Part shown: positions 2,575 to 64,000 of the stretch, in pieces
Layout of the letters: each line of letters starts with the position of its first letter
Numbering within the stretch: position 1 is the stretch's first letter
IMG/VR virus record: IMGVR_UViG_3300028388_003908
Span: 64,001 to 128,000 of that record
Direction: 5' to 3' (one strand)
Length of the DNA stretch: 64,000 bases
From: a virus
Made by a program: the position numbers and the translations under genes
Notes under the pieces: generated by a model
What the model was told of the DNA's origin: nothing
The model's input: the letters and a program-made list of their open reading frames with translations, nothing else
Database searches by the model: none

Positions 2575-3570
2575 TCAGTAAAGATCGTCCTCAAAATCAT
2601 AATCAGGATCGAAACCGAAAGTCTCCTCCTCTAGCTCCTCCAATGGGCTTGAATCAAAGATCCGATCCTCAAAATCATCCTCATCCTCATCCTCTTCCTC
2701 AAAAATATCTTCAAGAGGATCAATGCCCATGTCTGCGTCATACTCCATCTCATAAGGATAGTCTGGCTCGTACTCCTCATAAAATGTCTCGTCATGCAGT
2801 TTGCGCTCGCTGTCGGTCATAAACAGAGGCTCATCATCCTCTAGATCGAATTCTGCAACATCTGCATCGCCTAGATCATCCACGATAAGATCTGAGAGGT
2901 CGCCTTGAAATCTCTCGTCCTCAGGAAGATCAGCCTCAAGCTCCTCGAGGTCGAAGATAGGACCGTAATAAGCGCGTCTGCTTGAGCGCGCCTTCTTGCT
3001 CGCCTTGTCTAAGATCTCCTCTTGCTCCTCCTCAAGAGCTTTCACCTTAGCCTCAAGCTCTTCTAGCTCGTCCTCGTTCTCCTCGTAATCCTCTGACTGC
3101 ATCGCCTTAGCGCGATTCTTCACCACGTCCTTGTTGATCTCGGTTTGACGGTCGAACTCCTCGGCAGCTTCAGGATGTTCTTCCTTCCACTTCTTGAACT
3201 CTTCCTGACCTTTAGGTCCTGAATGAAAGCGAGCATAGCGAGGAATCATCATAGAGAAGATGCCGAGATCGTCAACGTAACCTTGACCGCCTTCGTATGA
3301 ACCCTCGCCCTCGTAATCGTCATCAAGATCAAGATAATCAACATAATCTTGAGCGTTGCCGGGACCGACAAGATCGAGACCTTGATCATATCCCGAGTTA
3401 ACCTGCACGGTGCTGTCTGCCAAGAAATCAACAGCCTCTCTTGAGCCGTAGTCTCTTCTCATTTGTAGAGGTTGGGTCAGAGCGATCTTCTTGCTGGCGA
3501 CCTTAGACGCGAGATCACCCCTTTGATCCTTCTTAAATTCGTTTGCGATCTTACTAAAAATATCAGACAT
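2575..3570 (-). CDS. Highly acidic protein with major-capsid-like N-terminus; candidate internal head protein
   Basis: D/E-rich; residues 32-43 TQPLQMRRDYGS match MCP TQPLRLRRDYTS; KVAS, KIAL, RYAR, KKAR, RRAY motifs. Confidence 0.7.
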   Translation of the reverse strand: MSDIFSKIANEFKKDQRGDLASKVASKKIALTQPLQMRRDYGSREAVDFLADSTVQVNSGYDQGLDLVGPGNAQDYVDYLDLDDDYEGEGSYEGGQGYVDDLGIFSMMIPRYARFHSGPKGQEEFKKWKEEHPEAAEEFDRQTEINKDVVKNRAKAMQSEDYEENEDELEELEAKVKALEEEQEEILDKASKKARSSRRAYYGPIFDLEELEADLPEDERFQGDLSDLIVDDLGDADVAEFDLEDDEPLFMTDSERKLHDETFYEEYEPDYPYEMEYDADMGIDPLEDIFEEEDEDEDDFEDRIFDSSPLEELEEETFGFDPDYDFEDDLY

Positions 3571-3615
3571 AAAACACCTCTGCGGATTGCGGGTTAGGTT
3601 TTATATCTCTCATAT

Positions 3616-3628
3616 ATAAAGCGTTTAT
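3616..3628. promoter_or_regulatory. Putative bidirectional late promoter (TAA-N4-TTTAT on both strands)
   Basis: ATAAAGCGTTTAT near-palindrome between divergent genes. Confidence 0.55.
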
Positions 3629-3637
3629 CACGTCTCT

Positions 3638-4618
3638 ATGAAAATGATTAAGAGAGGAGATCTTATGCGTAGAATCGCTAAAGCGGATGTTAATCCGATA
3701 CGTCAAGGTTCTCAGTTTTCATGTGTGAGCGCGTCTACCTGTATGGCGTTAAATGCTGTAGGTGTTCAGTGCTCTGAGGAAGACGTAAACAAGGTGATTG
3801 GCGCAAAGCCCATGCAGGGTGCGCGTTGGGAAGAGGTGCTAGCCTGCGCTCAATACTTTGGTTGTAGAGCAACCTTGACCACCCCTGCGACCTTGACTCA
3901 AGTTAAAGCGTGGACAGATCAAGGGAAGCCTGTACTGATCGCTTGGAATCCGGAAGGACGCGATTGGTCACACGCGAGCTTGATCTTTGACGTGACCGGA
4001 GAGAAAGGGGATTATGTGGTTCACGTTGCCGACCCTAATATCCCCAACCCCGATAAGACGACCCGAGAGGTCTCGGAAGACGAATTCTACTCTAAATGGT
4101 TTGAGAAGTGGCCTAACTATCTAGTGCGTAGACCTGCGCTTATGATCGAGCGCGAGATTGACCCTCAAGGCAGACAGATCATGGCGAGCCTTGATAGGGA
4201 ATCTAGGGTCAAGAGTCATAAGCACAACACCAAAAAGGAAGTTAAGGATTCTTACGAGGAGCAAAAGAAGAACTTTGGAAAAGAATGGGCAAAGTATGAA
4301 GGGGCTATGACACCTGAAGGACTTAATCAAGATCGCATTAATAAGAACTTAGGTAAAAAGCCTTCAGGTGGAGGTTTATCTCCTCTCGATAGTCTCGGTA
4401 AAGGTAAAAGCAAGCCTTCAGGAGGAGGTTTGTCCCCTCTTGATAGTCTCGGTAAAGGTAAAAGCAAGCCTTCGGGTGGGGGTTTGTCCCCTCTTGATAG
4501 ACTCGCTTCAGATGACGAGATATTTGATGATCTAGAAATCTACGCAGACGAGCACATGGCGGACCACAGAATCGCGTCATTAAAGCGCTACGCAATCCGG
4601 AAGATGATGGGTCGCTAA
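3638..4618 (+). CDS. Papain-like (C39-family) cysteine peptidase with repeat tail (likely start 3665)
   Basis: Q-x4-C (RQGSQFSC), WSHAS, VADPN catalytic pattern; AGGAG RBS before 3665. Confidence 0.8.
   Translation: MKMIKRGDLMRRIAKADVNPIRQGSQFSCVSASTCMALNAVGVQCSEEDVNKVIGAKPMQGARWEEVLACAQYFGCRATLTTPATLTQVKAWTDQGKPVLIAWNPEGRDWSHASLIFDVTGEKGDYVVHVADPNIPNPDKTTREVSEDEFYSKWFEKWPNYLVRRPALMIEREIDPQGRQIMASLDRESRVKSHKHNTKKEVKDSYEEQKKNFGKEWAKYEGAMTPEGLNQDRINKNLGKKPSGGGLSPLDSLGKGKSKPSGGGLSPLDSLGKGKSKPSGGGLSPLDRLASDDEIFDDLEIYADEHMADHRIASLKRYAIRKMMGR
4351..4500 (+). repeat. 54-bp coding tandem repeat, about 3 copies
   Basis: KPSGGGLSPLD(SLGKGKS) x3. Confidence 0.9.
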
Positions 4619-59419: not shown

Positions 59420-60298
59420 TTAGCGAGTGACGCTGAGACGAGCAAGACCGCGAGGGTTGTACGCGCCAATACCGAGGTTCTCAAACACAGAGAAGCCGAT
59501 AGTACGAGCCTTAGGGTCGTCCGCAGAGAGGACGGTAAGCTCGGTACGAACGGGGATACGACCAAACATCTCAGGCTCACAGCAGACATACACGGTGCCC
59601 GCAGGAACAAGACGGCTGGTGATAACCTGTGCGCCCCAAAGAGTAGCCTGAAGACCAGTCTTGAGAAGGGCTGCTTGGCTCTCAATGTCGAGAATGTCAC
59701 GACCAAACTTACGGATGTCAGCGTAGTCACGAGCGTTCATGAACACGCGAGCAACGCGAAGGTCATGGCTCTCAACGAGGCTGTATGCGTCAGCAAGCAC
59801 AGAGCCGTTAAGAGGCGCGATCACCTGAATGTCAGAGTTGGTCTGACCAGGTACGCTATCAAAGCCCTGCGTTGCCACAGCGTTAAGGATAGCGAACACG
59901 CGCTCGTCCTCGGCAGCCTGAATCTGGCTACGAGCGAGATCCTGAGCGCGCTCGATGAGATCGAAGCGTCTCTCCTTGATCTGTGTCAAGGGGATCTCAG
60001 GGTTTGATGCGATCTCAAAGAGAGGGAAGATCACACGGCGGGGCTTGGTGATGCTGAGGATGTTCTGTCCCTCTTCACCAACCACAAACGCGGTTACGTC
60101 AGGGTCCTTGTCGTAGATAGGAAGCGCGCCATCGGGCAACTGCTCTACGAGGAAGGTCTTACGACCCACAGAGGTATAGTCTCTGCGGAGGCGTAGGGGT
60201 TGTGTCATTGAGGCAGCCAACTTCGCACGACCCGCAGGGGTCTTGATGTAGTCGGCAATAATCTTGCTCTTTACGCTATTATCAACATTGTTGCTCAT
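59420..60298 (-). CDS. Major capsid protein (HK97 fold)
   Basis: Position after protease-scaffold-decoration genes; EQLPDGALPIYD, IQAAEDERVF, LWGAQVITSRLVPAGTVY, GFSVFENLGIGAYNPRG. Confidence 0.85.
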   Translation of the reverse strand: MSNNVDNSVKSKIIADYIKTPAGRAKLAASMTQPLRLRRDYTSVGRKTFLVEQLPDGALPIYDKDPDVTAFVVGEEGQNILSITKPRRVIFPLFEIASNPEIPLTQIKERRFDLIERAQDLARSQIQAAEDERVFAILNAVATQGFDSVPGQTNSDIQVIAPLNGSVLADAYSLVESHDLRVARVFMNARDYADIRKFGRDILDIESQAALLKTGLQATLWGAQVITSRLVPAGTVYVCCEPEMFGRIPVRTELTVLSADDPKARTIGFSVFENLGIGAYNPRGLARLSVTR

Positions 60299-60315: not shown

Positions 60316-60948
60316 TCAGATGCGCTGGTCGTAAACAAGCTCATCAGAAGATGAGTCAGGAGTGATCTTAAGGATACCGATAACGGTCACCTCATTCGCG
60401 CCACCGATATTGTGAGCAACATCATGTAGATTGGCTGCGTCACCGAGGGCTGCCTGAGTAAGGAAACCGTTAACAGAGGCTGCGAGAGTCTGACCAACGG
60501 AAAACGCGAGAGCGTTGCCATTATTACCAAGATCCTTAGTCTCGTAAAGGCTGTTGCCGTAGGTACCCTGCGCTGAGACGTAGGGGCCACGGTTTGAAGC
60601 AACGCCAGGGGTGTTCTCGAAAGCGTTACCGCTCGCGTTGTTAATGAACACACCAAGAACGCGCTCGCCAGTTGCCTGAGCGGCCGTGTGATCGCTAGGA
60701 CCACCGTGATAGTTAGCGCCCTCGTCAGGACGTGCAAAAGCGACAGAACCGCTGAGCACACCGAGTACGTTTGTAAGAAGACCAGACGCCTCGGTAGTGA
60801 AACCGGTTGCGTCAAAATCAACAGGATTTCTCTGAGTGAAAGCGTCAGCGGTAAGCTGTCCGAGGGTGTTGCGAACACCAACGTGCAGAATACGAAGCGC
60901 TGAGCTTGACTCTGAGAAACCACCACTAGCTTGTCCAAGTAGAGCCAT
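60316..60948 (-). CDS. Capsid decoration/minor capsid protein
   Basis: G/A/N-rich, directly upstream of MCP; TGATTCGTTTAT upstream (61064-61075). Confidence 0.6.
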   Translation of the reverse strand: MALLGQASGGFSESSSALRILHVGVRNTLGQLTADAFTQRNPVDFDATGFTTEASGLLTNVLGVLSGSVAFARPDEGANYHGGPSDHTAAQATGERVLGVFINNASGNAFENTPGVASNRGPYVSAQGTYGNSLYETKDLGNNGNALAFSVGQTLAASVNGFLTQAALGDAANLHDVAHNIGGANEVTVIGILKITPDSSSDELVYDQRI

Positions 60949-61088: not shown

Positions 61089-62444
61089 TTAGCCGAAGTA
61101 TCTGCTAACGTCAGGTGCGGTCTCCCACAGCTTGCTGAGATCGTCTGCACCGCTTGAAGCCTCACGGCTGATGTTGCCGAGGGTCTTCACAGCAGGCTGA
61201 CGACTAGCGAGACGAGGACGTGCGTGAGCCTTCTTAGAAGCGGTAGGCTCCTCCTCGCTCATCTGAATCTCCTCAGACTCTTCCTCCTCAGTCTCTTCCT
61301 CCTCAGTCTCTTCCTCCTCAGTCTCTTCCTCAGAAGCCTCAAAGATACGAGCGAGCTTAGGATCAACAGACGCCTCCTCGGTTGCGTCTAGACCCATGGT
61401 GTCCTCTGAAGTCTCCTCCTCTGAAGCCTCCTCCTCTGAAGCCTCCTCCTCTGAAGCGCTATGATAGAAGTTAGCCTTCTTGCTATCCATGTCAGCTAGG
61501 ATAGAAGCGAGTACGCCCTCCTCTGCGCTCTCCTCGTCTGCTTCCTCCTCCTCTGAAAGGATCTCAGCGAGTACGCTGGCGAGACGGTTTATACCACGGC
61601 TCTCGCTACGGGGACGCCAAGAAGCCTGCTTAGGCTGCTCAACGCTCTCCTCCATCAACTCCTCTTCATCGTCAGAGTATCCGGTAGCCTTTGCCACAGC
61701 GTCATCAGCGAGCTTGCGAACCTGTGAAGCAAGACGAGCGTTAGCGAGCTTTAAGGTATCAACCTGCTCTTGAAGCATCTCAGCTAGACGGTCGGTGTGT
61801 CTGCGAGACGCCATGTGATGAGTTCCCATGTAGCCAGACTCATGCTCATCTGCCATGTGATAATCAGACTCATGCTCGTCTGCCATGTGATAATCAGACT
61901 CATGCTCGTCTGCCATGAGATCAAGATCATCAATGATCTCGTCATCATCAGCGTACATATCAGCGTTCACGTTACCAGGGCCGCGATCTGTGACGTGATA
62001 GCCGGTAGCTACCTCCATCTCGTCATGCGCCATGTCCTCCTCAGAAAGACGTGCCAGCTTGTTTTCGATTTGACGATTAGGGAGATCCATGAAGCGAAGC
62101 GCGAGATCCTCAATATCGTTCTGTGAAGCTCTGCGACCAAGCTGAGCCTCTGCGATACGGATGCACTTGGCAGCCTTGCGCTCCATAGCCTGACGAAGAC
62201 CAAAGTCCTCTGCAAGCTCATCGGTCACGGCAGGGTGATCAGGCTCCCAACCGTAAGAAGCAGGAGGAGGACCTGAACGGTAAGGACCCTCATGTACTGC
62301 CTCACCGAAATCTGAATCAATTGCGTAATCGTCAATCTCAGGAAGAGGCTTAGTAGCAGGATGCCCGAAAGCATCGAAACCGAGATTATCATAACCAGGA
62401 AGGGCGCTGTTCGCCCTGCGACCTCTACGGGGGAAACGTGACAT
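61089..62444 (-). CDS. Prohead scaffold-like protein
   Basis: Acidic, coiled-coil, many (K/R)xA motifs; between protease and capsid genes. Confidence 0.65.
   Translation of the reverse strand: MSRFPRRGRRANSALPGYDNLGFDAFGHPATKPLPEIDDYAIDSDFGEAVHEGPYRSGPPPASYGWEPDHPAVTDELAEDFGLRQAMERKAAKCIRIAEAQLGRRASQNDIEDLALRFMDLPNRQIENKLARLSEEDMAHDEMEVATGYHVTDRGPGNVNADMYADDDEIIDDLDLMADEHESDYHMADEHESDYHMADEHESGYMGTHHMASRRHTDRLAEMLQEQVDTLKLANARLASQVRKLADDAVAKATGYSDDEEELMEESVEQPKQASWRPRSESRGINRLASVLAEILSEEEEADEESAEEGVLASILADMDSKKANFYHSASEEEASEEEASEEETSEDTMGLDATEEASVDPKLARIFEASEEETEEEETEEEETEEEESEEIQMSEEEPTASKKAHARPRLASRQPAVKTLGNISREASSGADDLSKLWETAPDVSRYFG
61270..61460 (-). repeat. 15-bp coding repeats (EEETE, SEEEA)
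   Basis: TCTTCCTCCTCAG(TC) x3 and CCTCCTCTGAAG x3. Confidence 0.85.
61833..61918 (-). repeat. 30-bp coding repeat x3
   Basis: MADEHESDYH x2 plus MADEHESGY. Confidence 0.9.
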
Positions 62445-62476: not shown

Positions 62477-63838
62477 TCAAGCCCTTGTGGAGATTAACTT
62501 GGATAATCTTACCAAGCGTGATTTGTCTTGATCAGAGAGTTCCGCTCCATTATACATGGTCGCCCTCTGTAAAAATGCCTCGACAGAAGCATATCTATCA
62601 GCCCTGCCCAAGAGCTTGGCGATACGATAGATTTTCTCAGACATCCGGACGTTGTAATGGTCATTAACAAGACGGATGTTGTCGACCACCTCGGAATCGC
62701 TCTTGGCGATACGGATGGCTGATTCAAGATTGCGGGCATAGACCTTACGGAGCGCTTGACCCTCTTTAATAATGGTGTCGTTCTCGCTCACGGTAGATTC
62801 GCTTATGGCGGGCTTGAGTGCCTCGTCCATAAGACCGCTCTTGATCTCTTGCTCAATCTTCTTACGGATACGATTGATGACCGCGTCTGTAACCGCTGTC
62901 TCTACCTCGTCAATAATTGACTTGGGACCAGCAGGTTCGGCGGGCTTCTCATCTCCATCGTCATCATCAAATCCGAAAGCTAGACGATGAGACGCGCTCT
63001 TTTGAATCCATTTCTCGGGTACATCAGATGATTCTTCTGATGAAGGGATCTCAAGTATGTTACGAGCTACAGCACCCTTAAAGGCTGGCGTCTCTACCCA
63101 AGAAGCCTCGATAAAGGTAACCCCACCTGTCTCTCCTGCGGTGTGATGACCACAAAGCTCTGCGACACGGTGCTTATTGCCTTGCTCGTCATAGAAGGTA
63201 TTACCCTTCTCATACTTGATGTGCTGACACATCTCGGTCTCATCGGCTGCGACATGACCACATTTCGTGCAGATAGTAAAATCGACACTACAGCCCATGC
63301 TCATGGCGTTGGTCTTACCGCTCAGAATATCCTCGACAAGACCCTCATGCTTACGATCTGTCGCCACAAGGATATCCACATAAAGCGATTCCCCTACGTC
63401 ACGGAGAACAGCGTCAATAATGCGCCCCTTTGAAAGCTCCTCAACCTGAACGTGCTCTACAAAGTTATGCGCCCCGACAAAGGTCTTGTAGGACTTTTGA
63501 ATGACTTCTCTTGACCAGCTATCGAGATTATTGTTGATGTACTGATCGGTCTTAGGACTAATACGATAATCCGCATACTTGCGATGTATCTGCTGACCGT
63601 CTTGTGTAAGCGAGCCTGTCTTAGTCCCGGGAGGAGTCACAGCGTCTACAGAGCAGACAATCGTGGCGTGAGTAAGCAGGAAACGGTCGGGCGTGAAGGC
63701 CTCCCCTAGTATATCCTCTGCTTGCTTACGCAAGGATTTATTGACCGTAGCCTTAGAAGCTACGCGCACTTTATCCCAATGATTACCTCTCACGTCAGGC
63801 GTGACAACCCCTGCGCGAGCGTATCTTAGAAATGCCAT
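62477..63838 (-). CDS. Candidate prohead maturation protease with Zn-finger insert (start 63838)
   Basis: FVEH, GRIIDA, MSMGC, CTKCG..C.H, FIEASWVETPAF resemble HK97/herpes-type protease layout; GGAGG RBS. Confidence 0.65.
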   Translation of the reverse strand: MAFLRYARAGVVTPDVRGNHWDKVRVASKATVNKSLRKQAEDILGEAFTPDRFLLTHATIVCSVDAVTPPGTKTGSLTQDGQQIHRKYADYRISPKTDQYINNNLDSWSREVIQKSYKTFVGAHNFVEHVQVEELSKGRIIDAVLRDVGESLYVDILVATDRKHEGLVEDILSGKTNAMSMGCSVDFTICTKCGHVAADETEMCQHIKYEKGNTFYDEQGNKHRVAELCGHHTAGETGGVTFIEASWVETPAFKGAVARNILEIPSSEESSDVPEKWIQKSASHRLAFGFDDDDGDEKPAEPAGPKSIIDEVETAVTDAVINRIRKKIEQEIKSGLMDEALKPAISESTVSENDTIIKEGQALRKVYARNLESAIRIAKSDSEVVDNIRLVNDHYNVRMSEKIYRIAKLLGRADRYASVEAFLQRATMYNGAELSDQDKSRLVRLSKLISTRA

Positions 63839-64000
63839 TAGAAACCTCCTATAATGTCTTCTTGCTTGATTAGGAAAAGACACGAAGGACAGCCCAAAAG
63901 ACGCTCGCTCACGCCATCTCTTCTCTTATAGCAGGTTCTCTTAAGAGGCACTTCGCATTTAGGACAATGAGGGTGAATCTCATCTTTGCGCTGTCGATAC
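63838..64000 (-). CDS. C-terminal part of a zinc-ribbon protein (starts outside window)
   Basis: HCPKC...LGCPSCLFLIK..GGF*; TAATG overlap with protease. Confidence 0.65.
   Translation of the reverse strand, partial: YRQRKDEIHPHCPKCEVPLKRTCYKRRDGVSERLLGCPSCLFLIKQEDIIGGF

What the first reader, a model, noticed from the sequence alone, without database searches (positions are those of the whole stretch)
3442..3489. Acidic protein carries a copy of the major capsid N-arm at identical residue numbers
Residues 32-43 TQPLQMRRDYGS match MCP residues 32-43 TQPLRLRRDYTS (9 of 12 identical; MCP nt 60170-60205). Both are preceded by SKI... and a KxA motif. The rest is D/E-rich and unrelated to MCP. Inference: a capsid-mimic peptide docks this protein on the shell interior, or it acts as an assembly regulator or auxiliary scaffold.
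Basis: partly seen in the sequence, partly recalled or inferred. Interest (0 to 1): 0.75.

Follow-up and report, generated by a model that had tools for sequence, protein, structure and literature searches.

The report
Capsid-protein N-terminus copied onto head-assembly protein
In a clade of uncultured giant phages related to phage G, an acidic scaffold-like protein starts with a conserved copy of the first ~50 residues of the phage's own major capsid protein. The copy moves between proteins and changes together with the capsid protein, so it is most likely a signal that brings its carrier into the assembling head, although neither binding nor cutting has been measured.

Summary
Residues 32-43 of the 331-aa acidic protein (window 2575-3570, minus strand) match residues 32-43 of the 292-aa major capsid protein (MCP, 59420-60298, minus strand) at 9 of 12 positions. 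The ungapped match extends to 11 of 20 (residues 31-50), and BLASTP gives E=1e-4 over 47 residues. A profile of the carrier family's N-terminus, built without the window's own protein, finds only the MCPs among 6015 ORFs of three genomes (E about 2e-6; next hit 0.37).

The motif is the best-conserved part of the acidic family. It matches the clade-specific version of an N-terminal helix conserved across the whole MCP family. Position 37 differs between two MCP lineages, and the carriers differ in step with it (11 genomes). The motif is portable: it is N-terminal here, lies inside 790-1480-aa C39-peptidase polyproteins in relatives, and is C-terminal on a C39-like peptidase in a 485-kb phage. 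It usually follows a [KR]-x-A site. On its own it is predicted disordered. The carrier shares modules with the scaffold-position protein.

Best reading (about 0.5): an MCP-derived recruitment-and-processing signal on a scaffold-related head protein. Rivals: a protease recognition element only, or a C39 cleavage site. The equal residue numbers are a coincidence. Earlier notes of this scan on the same genome describe a different leader tag and the [KR]-x-A idea.

The parts
2575..3570 (-). Acidic carrier protein, 331 aa, pI 4.05. Member of a modular family of huge-phage proteins that also occurs fused behind a C39 peptidase domain.
3481..3570 (-). Residues 1-30: N-terminal helix (AF2 helix 4-25) resembling MCP helix 1, then two [KR]-x-A sites (K23-V24-A25 and K28-I29-A30), the second directly before the motif.
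3442..3477 (-). Residues 32-43, the core motif: a copy of MCP residues 32-43. Q33, P34, L35, D40, Y41 and G42 are invariant in the family. Predicted disordered in isolation.
3421..3480 (-). Residues 31-50: full ungapped stretch shared with the MCP (11/20 identical, including F49-L50).
3346..3432 (-). Residues 47-75: module shared with the scaffold-position proteins of related phages.
   Evidence: E 1e-7; E 3e-8
2965..3240 (-). Residues about 111-202: the only confidently folded part (long helices, pLDDT 81-95). The conserved 'RFHxGPKG...' module repeats in relatives.
3638..4618 (+). Divergent neighbour: a C39-like cysteine peptidase domain plus a repeat-rich tail. It is fused to, or sits next to, the motif-bearing protein in relatives.
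59420..60298 (-). Major capsid protein, HK97 fold, phage-G type.
60149..60298 (-). MCP residues 1-50: helix 7-19, K26-L27-A28, and helix 21-42 holding the motif (nt 60170-60205). Among the most conserved positions of the whole MCP family.
61089..62444 (-). Acidic 451-aa protein at the scaffold position, between protease and MCP.
62477..63883 (-). Head maturation protease (phrog_18299) with a long C-terminal extension.

Best explanation
The acidic protein is a scaffold-related head-assembly or head-internal protein of a phage-G-like huge phage. Its first ~50 residues are a functional copy of the MCP's N-terminal module: a short helix, a [KR]-x-A site, then the N-arm helix with the motif. On its own the module is a disordered short linear motif. 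I propose that the partner that reads the MCP N-terminus in the prohead also reads this copy. That partner could be the scaffold core or a neighbouring MCP surface. The carrier would then be drawn into the growing head. The head protease would cut at K28-I29-A30, just as it would cut the MCP at K26-L27-A28. Like a scaffold, the very acidic remainder would be degraded or expelled before the DNA fills the head.

Shown: the similarity, its conservation, its portability, its co-variation with the MCP, the module sharing with scaffold-position proteins, and the upstream [KR]-x-A. Inferred: the presence of the carrier in proheads, the identity of the partner, and any cleavage.
For: The similarity is significant in both directions. 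The motif is the most conserved element of the carrier family. In the MCP it lies in a helix predicted with pLDDT 96-97 and matched to the N-helix of encapsulins and prohead-state MCPs, and the MCP family conserves it widely. The carrier matches the cognate clade best: 11/20 identical against a median of 5-6/20 for 85 MCP representatives. Position 37 is T in the carrier in 5/5 genomes whose MCP has T37, and is never T in 6/6 genomes whose MCP has L37. The motif is portable: N-terminal, internal in polyproteins, and C-terminal. It is disordered in isolation. Carrier residues 47-75 match scaffold-position proteins, and EF-hand pairs occur in both. [KR]-x-A precedes the motif in 18/30 distinct carriers against an 11.7% background. 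The same kind of site ends the leader shared by six small ORFs of this genome.
Against: There is no proteomic, structural or binding evidence. The carrier gene lies 57 kb from the head module. A complete 312-kb relative has a carrier homologue without the motif and no other carrier, so the module is not essential. There is only one carrier per genome, unlike a general cargo tag. The co-variation amounts to roughly one evolutionary split, and repeated copying from the MCP gene could also produce it. Phage G and Tunturi_5 have no second copy of their own N-arm. It is unknown whether this MCP is cleaved at all.
Confidence: 0.5

Rival explanations
1. The module is only an extended recognition element (exosite plus cut site) for the head maturation protease. 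The MCP propeptide junction and the carrier junction look alike because one enzyme must cut both just upstream of the motif. The motif has no docking role.
For: [KR]-x-A or small residues lie directly before the motif in most carriers and in the MCP. In polyproteins the motif sits at a domain junction. [KR]-x-A also separates repeated modules in L108/L110 and ends the shared leader. The MCP family conserves [KR]26-L27-A28 and has variable N-terminal extensions that look like propeptides.
Against: Twelve to twenty conserved residues on the primed side is far more than known head proteases read. The C-terminal copy on the LR745208 C39-like protein has no [KR]-x-A next to it and nothing downstream to release. 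By structural alignment, a cut at A28 would fall inside the helix that HK97 and encapsulins keep.
Confidence: 0.2
2. The motif is the recognition or self-release site of the C39-like cysteine peptidase that is fused to, or encoded next to, the carrier. The MCP N-terminus may be a further substrate of that peptidase.
For: C39 domain and motif lie in one polyprotein in at least five contigs. They are tandem genes in G002, divergent neighbours here, and in LR745208 the motif sits on the C39-like protein itself. The C39-like gene and the carriers both occur only in this clade and not in phage G, Tunturi_5 or Rctr197k. P2-P1 before the motif are mostly small residues.
Against: There is no Gly-Gly at P2-P1, and the hydrophobic spacing of C39 leaders is only partly met. 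In G013 the two genes are 35 kb apart and the motif is retained. This reading does not explain why the site should copy the MCP helix and co-vary with it, unless the MCP is a substrate, while a canonical head protease sits beside the MCP gene.
Confidence: 0.13
3. The N-arm copy acts as a competitor that regulates assembly. It would occupy the N-arm-binding site of the scaffold or MCP to time or limit shell growth, without the carrier being incorporated.
For: The observations are the same as for docking. The motif is dispensable in one complete genome, which fits a modulator.
Against: The module sharing with scaffold-position proteins and the polyprotein architecture point to a head component rather than a soluble regulator.
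Confidence: 0.1
4. The similarity is a relic of an old partial duplication or recombination with the MCP gene and has no present function, or it is a chance match.
For: The match is short, and there is one carrier per genome.
Against: Profile E-values are near 2e-6 with a gap of five orders of magnitude to the next hit. The motif residues are invariant while the flanks diverge to 25-40% identity. Synonymous differences show selection at the protein level. The motif co-varies with the MCP.
Confidence: 0.04

Closest known systems
Capsid targeting sequence (CTS) of phage T4 internal proteins IPI-III and Alt, removed by prohead protease gp21, and the N-terminal propeptides of giant-phage head proteins (SPN3US, phiKZ; PMC10052503)
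   Same: A short terminal peptide on non-shell proteins, followed by a candidate head-protease site, is thought to bring the protein into the prohead core.
   Different: Here the peptide is a copy of the MCP's own N-terminus and co-varies with it. There is one carrier per genome, and the motif can be internal or C-terminal. The candidate cut rule is [KR]-x-A, not L/I-x-E or A-x-E. Nothing has been measured. The same genome has a separate leader on several small ORFs.
Encapsulin cargo-loading peptides, which bind the luminal pocket formed by the shell protein's N-helix and P-domain
   Same: A portable, disordered, terminal or linker-borne peptide addresses unrelated domains to the inside of an HK97-fold shell. 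The MCP model aligns best with encapsulins and procapsids, N-helix included.
   Different: The motif copies the N-helix itself, not a ligand of it. There is no sequence likeness to the known loading peptides (from my own knowledge). The host is a tailed phage with a scaffold and a protease.
Scaffold binding to the MCP N-arm in P22, 80alpha and T7, and SaPI1 CpmB, whose C-terminus imitates the 80alpha scaffold to bind the capsid protein (established knowledge, not tested here)
   Same: The N-arm helix of an HK97-fold MCP is the handle that scaffolding proteins grasp. Molecular mimicry of one assembly partner by another protein is known.
   Different: In SaPI1 the scaffold end is imitated. Here the capsid-protein end is imitated, and by a phage-encoded scaffold-like protein.
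HK97 gp5 delta domain and N-arm junction
   Same: An N-terminal propeptide is followed by an N-arm whose sequence pattern (P-x-L-R...R-D...G-R) resembles this MCP family's pattern.
   Different: The propeptide would be only about 28 residues here. Cleavage is unproven. HK97 has no second protein carrying the junction.

Membership tests
T4-type capsid targeting sequence | The same short peptide sits at the extreme N-terminus of several unrelated head-internal proteins of one phage. | tested here: not met
   There is one non-MCP carrier per genome, and none in G001. The position is N-terminal, internal or C-terminal.
T4-type capsid targeting sequence | The peptide is removed by the prohead protease at its consensus site. 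| not testable with these tools
   Only indirect evidence: [KR]-x-A precedes the motif in 18/30 carriers against an 11.7% background.
T4-type capsid targeting sequence | The peptide is sufficient to load a foreign protein into the capsid. | not testable with these tools
   This needs an experiment.
Encapsulin cargo-loading peptide | A short terminal peptide binds the luminal pocket of the shell protein. | not testable with these tools
   No complex prediction was available. The motif equals the shell protein's N-helix rather than a ligand of it.
Phage scaffolding protein | An acidic, largely helical or disordered protein. | tested here: met
   pI 4.05. AF2 shows long helices at residues 119-201 and disorder elsewhere.
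Phage scaffolding protein | Homology to the protein encoded between the protease and the MCP. | tested here: inconclusive
   Residues 47-75 match the scaffold-position proteins of G003 and G013 (E 1e-7 and 3e-8). There is no significant match to this window's own 451-aa protein (E 0.44).
Phage scaffolding protein | Present in proheads, absent from mature heads, and required for shell assembly. | not testable with these tools
   No cultured member. The motif is dispensable in G001.
HK97-fold major capsid protein (paralogue) | The HK97 fold is present beyond the N-arm. | tested here: not met
   There is no similarity after residue 52. The AF2 model shows no HK97 domains. The MCP profile finds only one gene per genome.
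C39 double-glycine leader peptide | Gly-Gly (or Gly-Ala/Ser) at P2-P1, preceded by an amphipathic helix with hydrophobic residues at -4, -7, -12 and -15. | tested here: not met
   P2-P1 are IA, SS, AS, GS, AA or QS. The hydrophobic spacing is only partly met in one subfamily.

The most novel reading that the evidence does not exclude
The carrier docks on the inside of the shell or on the scaffold core by presenting a stand-in for the capsid protein's own N-arm helix. This would be a self-mimicry address that evolves in step with the MCP and can be placed at either end of a protein or inside a polyprotein. It would be a capsid-loading principle distinct from both the T4 CTS and the encapsulin loading peptides, in one of the most abundant clades of environmental huge phages.
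Probability: 0.3. Interest if true: 0.8.

Novelty: new variant of a known kind. Interest (0 to 1): 0.62.

Why it matters
How giant phages sort proteins into their heads is largely unknown outside T4 and the phiKZ group. This clade is very common in metagenomes: more than 2000 MCP clusters at E<=1e-5 and 573 viral contigs. If the MCP-like module is an address, it identifies the surface that reads the N-arm of a phage-G-type capsid protein. It would also give a 12-20-residue tag that could be tested for loading proteins into HK97-fold shells. If it is instead a protease determinant, it defines the maturation junction of this MCP family. Either way it links three gene families (MCP, scaffold-like acidic proteins, C39 peptidase polyproteins) into one assembly network that can be tested directly.

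Tried and rejected
1. tblastn of the acidic protein against 50,697 phage records found nothing. A single-sequence scan of viral contigs also found nothing. Only the profile and a DNA pattern worked.

2. A word-index search restricted to residues 1-60 gave just three family members.

3. Phage G and Tunturi_5 have no second copy of their own N-arm. The control for sensitivity was, which found the window's carrier at E 0.005.

4. A profile of distant MCP N-termini ranks the carrier as the first non-MCP hit, but not significantly (E 0.48). The likeness is therefore specific to the clade, not to the family.

5. Nine fragmentary contigs that carry a carrier lack the MCP, so co-variation could not be read there.

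6. The Atlas look-up gave no usable hit. Pfam and PHROGs gave nothing credible for the carrier.

7. The phage G structure paper (PMC7316594) is not held. The Myrna paper says nothing about the N-arm or cleavage.

8. The idea of a trans-complemented MCP paralogue lacking an N-arm was rejected, because no paralogue is found in two complete genomes.

9. The 'same residue number' point was rejected as a coincidence.

10. Upstream regions were inspected for a shared promoter, but no clear common motif was established.

Full report
**Where this lies.** The window is bases 64001-128000 of a 143-kb IMG/VR viral contig, estimated 46% complete. The phage belongs to a very abundant uncultured clade. Its MCP is 86% identical to that of a 485-kb uncultured phage (LR745208), 46% to Tunturiibacter phage Tunturi_5 and 38% to Bacillus phage G gp27. 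There are 573 related viral contigs and more than 2000 MCP clusters. The head module in the window reads:
- protease, 62477-63883 (phrog_18299);
- an acidic 451-aa protein at the scaffold position, 61089-62444;
- a 210-aa ORF at the position of phage G's decoration gene;
- the MCP, 59420-60298.

The protein in question (2575-3570, minus strand, 331 aa, pI 4.05) lies 57 kb away. It sits between a PhoH-like gene and a divergently oriented C39-like peptidase gene.

- Residues 32-43 of both proteins match at 9/12 positions, at exactly the stated coordinates.
- The ungapped match runs over residues 31-50 (11/20). With gaps it covers the preceding helix as well (BLASTP E 1e-4).
- A profile built from the N-terminal 55 columns of the homologues, leaving out the window's own protein, was run against all 6015 six-frame ORFs of this contig and two complete related genomes. 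After the family members it found only the three MCPs, at E 1.6e-6 to 2.8e-6. The next hit had E 0.37.
- The whole-family profile also hit the MCP N-terminus in seven related genomes.
- Codon usage differs at five of the shared residues, so the likeness is kept at the protein level.
- The equal residue numbers are accidental. In homologues the motif begins anywhere between residue 8 and residue 530.

**What the motif is in the MCP.** Among 85 MCP representatives of 27-88% identity, positions G23, R24, L27, A28, S30, M31, P34, L35, R36, D40, Y41, S43 and R46 are among the most conserved of the whole protein. AlphaFold2 (mean pLDDT 94.7) places residues 21-42 in a helix, with pLDDT 96-97 there. 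The model aligns best with procapsid-state MCPs and encapsulins, N-terminal helix included: model residue 21 corresponds to EncA residue 8, and model residue 28 to HK97 residue 119. The motif is therefore the clade's version of the luminal N-arm helix of an HK97-fold protein. Many distant MCP homologues carry 30-100 extra N-terminal residues before this region. Nearly all have [KR]-L-A three residues before the motif. This would fit a maturation cut there, but no data show it.

**What the motif is in the carrier.** Sixteen homologues were found by protein search and more by DNA pattern. Q33, P34, L35, D40, Y41 and G42 are invariant or nearly so, while the flanks fall to 25-40% identity. In some relatives the motif equals the MCP's over ten residues. 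AlphaFold2 predicts the carrier's residues 26-110 as disordered (pLDDT about 40). It predicts a helix at 4-25 and a confident helical part only at 111-200. The same sequence that forms a packed helix in the MCP is thus a free linear motif here.

**Matching to the cognate MCP.**
- Of the 85 MCP representatives, the window's own MCP and its 88% relative are the closest to the carrier (11/20). The median is 5-6/20.
- A profile of distant MCPs does not detect the carrier significantly (E 0.48).
- In eleven genomes where both genes could be read, the five whose MCP has T at position 37 all have T37 in the carrier. The six whose MCP has L37 have M, N or L there, and never T.
- This is roughly one lineage split, so it is suggestive rather than statistical proof. 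Repeated copying from the MCP gene would give the same picture.

**Portability and linkage to a C39-like peptidase.**
- In LR745208 the orthologue of the neighbouring C39-like protein (53% identity, E 1e-57) ends with a short helix and the motif, followed by five residues and a stop.
- In at least five other contigs the motif lies inside polyproteins of 790-1480 aa. These run: C39 peptidase domain (Pfam PF13529/PF03412 above threshold), a linker, R-E-A, the motif, then modules also seen in the acidic family. One of them contains an intein.
- In G002 the C39-like gene and the carrier gene are tandem. Here they are divergent neighbours. In G013 they are 35 kb apart.
- In another relative, the carrier homologue carries the C-terminal module that in this window belongs to the C39-like protein (E 3e-37).
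- A complete 312-kb genome (G001) has a carrier homologue without the motif, and no other carrier.
- Phage G, Tunturi_5 and Rctr197k have neither a C39-like gene nor a second N-arm copy.

**Relation to the scaffold.** Carrier residues 47-75 match the scaffold-position proteins of related phages (E 1e-7 by BLASTP; E 3e-8 by profile). EF-hand pairs occur both in those proteins and in many carriers. A 'DDEI-x-DDL...ADEH' motif is shared by this window's scaffold-position protein and the C39-like protein. There is no significant match to this window's own 451-aa protein as a whole.

**The upstream site.** [KR]-x-A ends within a few residues before the motif in 18 of 30 distinct carriers, against 11.7% of random windows in the same proteins. 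The nominal binomial P is 4e-10, but the sequences are related. The rest have small residues there. The same kind of site separates repeated modules in two relatives. It also ends the 23-residue leader shared by six small ORFs of this genome. Earlier notes of this scan read that leader as a head-protease cut site (e1-5791462, e1-5791448, e1-5803035). Those notes are unverified. I checked only the sequence pattern.

**Interpretation.** Together these facts show a conserved, portable, MCP-matched linear module on proteins that belong to the scaffold and head-protein network. The most economical mechanism is that the module is read by whatever reads the MCP N-terminus during prohead assembly. This would recruit the carrier and couple it to proteolysis at the adjoining site. 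I give this 0.5. The remaining weight is split as follows:
- a pure head-protease determinant, 0.2;
- a C39-like peptidase site, 0.13;
- a competitive regulator, 0.1;
- a relic or chance match, 0.04.

No tool here could predict complexes, and no cultured member with proteomics exists. The partner and the cut therefore remain inferences.

**Comparison with known systems.** The module works like the T4 capsid targeting sequence and the propeptides of giant-phage head proteins (PMC10052503). It fails the defining feature of one tag on many unrelated proteins. It also differs in being a copy of the MCP itself. It resembles encapsulin loading peptides in portability, but it copies the shell's N-helix rather than its ligand. 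SaPI1 CpmB is a precedent for mimicry in capsid assembly, but there the scaffold end is imitated. I file this as a new variant of a known kind.

Noticed in passing
window 3638-4618 (+); L165, L167, L168, L171, L174: The C39-like peptidase heads polyproteins of 790-1480 aa in related huge phages. These contain repeated small modules, EF-hands and, in two contigs, an intein with a LAGLIDADG domain. In this window the family is split into separate genes.
   Followed up: partly
window 4530-4600 (+) and 61860-61940 (-): The scaffold-position protein and the C39-like protein share a near-identical acidic motif, 'DDEI(I/F)DDL(D/E)(L/I)xADEH'. A looser copy is in the carrier (residues about 227-240). 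Its function is unknown.
   Followed up: partly
G000 contig: 1729, 4273, 24532, 111375, 112353, 130986 (contig coordinates): Six small ORFs begin with the same ~23-residue leader (MRRTASEV...RLE) ending in [KR]-x-A, followed by unrelated sequence. This is a different candidate head-address tag in the same phage. Four of them share an upstream T-run plus CATTTATGAG.
   Followed up: partly
MCP homologues P0146-P0190: Many distant members of this MCP family start with a conserved 'M(D/N)RY-x-I-x-LGK' peptide, a proline run and a basic stretch before the region aligned with this MCP. This may be a propeptide or a second signal.
   Followed up: no
L084:1096-2049 (-) in G001: The carrier homologue of a complete 312-kb genome lacks the motif, has its modules in a different order and carries a long His/Asp-rich tract.
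   Followed up: partly
L102, L103, L109 (carriers of G015, G002 and relatives): One carrier subfamily replaces the N-terminal helix with a basic stretch and a conserved 'ACGC' cysteine pair directly before the motif.
   Followed up: no
L086:493-2061 (-) in G003; L171: EF-hand calcium-binding pairs lie inside a scaffold-position protein and inside carriers or polyproteins. This suggests calcium-dependent behaviour of head-internal proteins in this clade.
   Followed up: no
window 3571-3637: The 67-bp gap between the divergent carrier and C39-like genes holds a near-palindrome (ATAAAGCGTTTAT) that could serve both genes.
   Followed up: no
window 60316-60948 (-): A 210-aa Gly/Ala/Ser-rich ORF with no family match sits where phage G has its capsid decoration gene gp26.
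   Followed up: no
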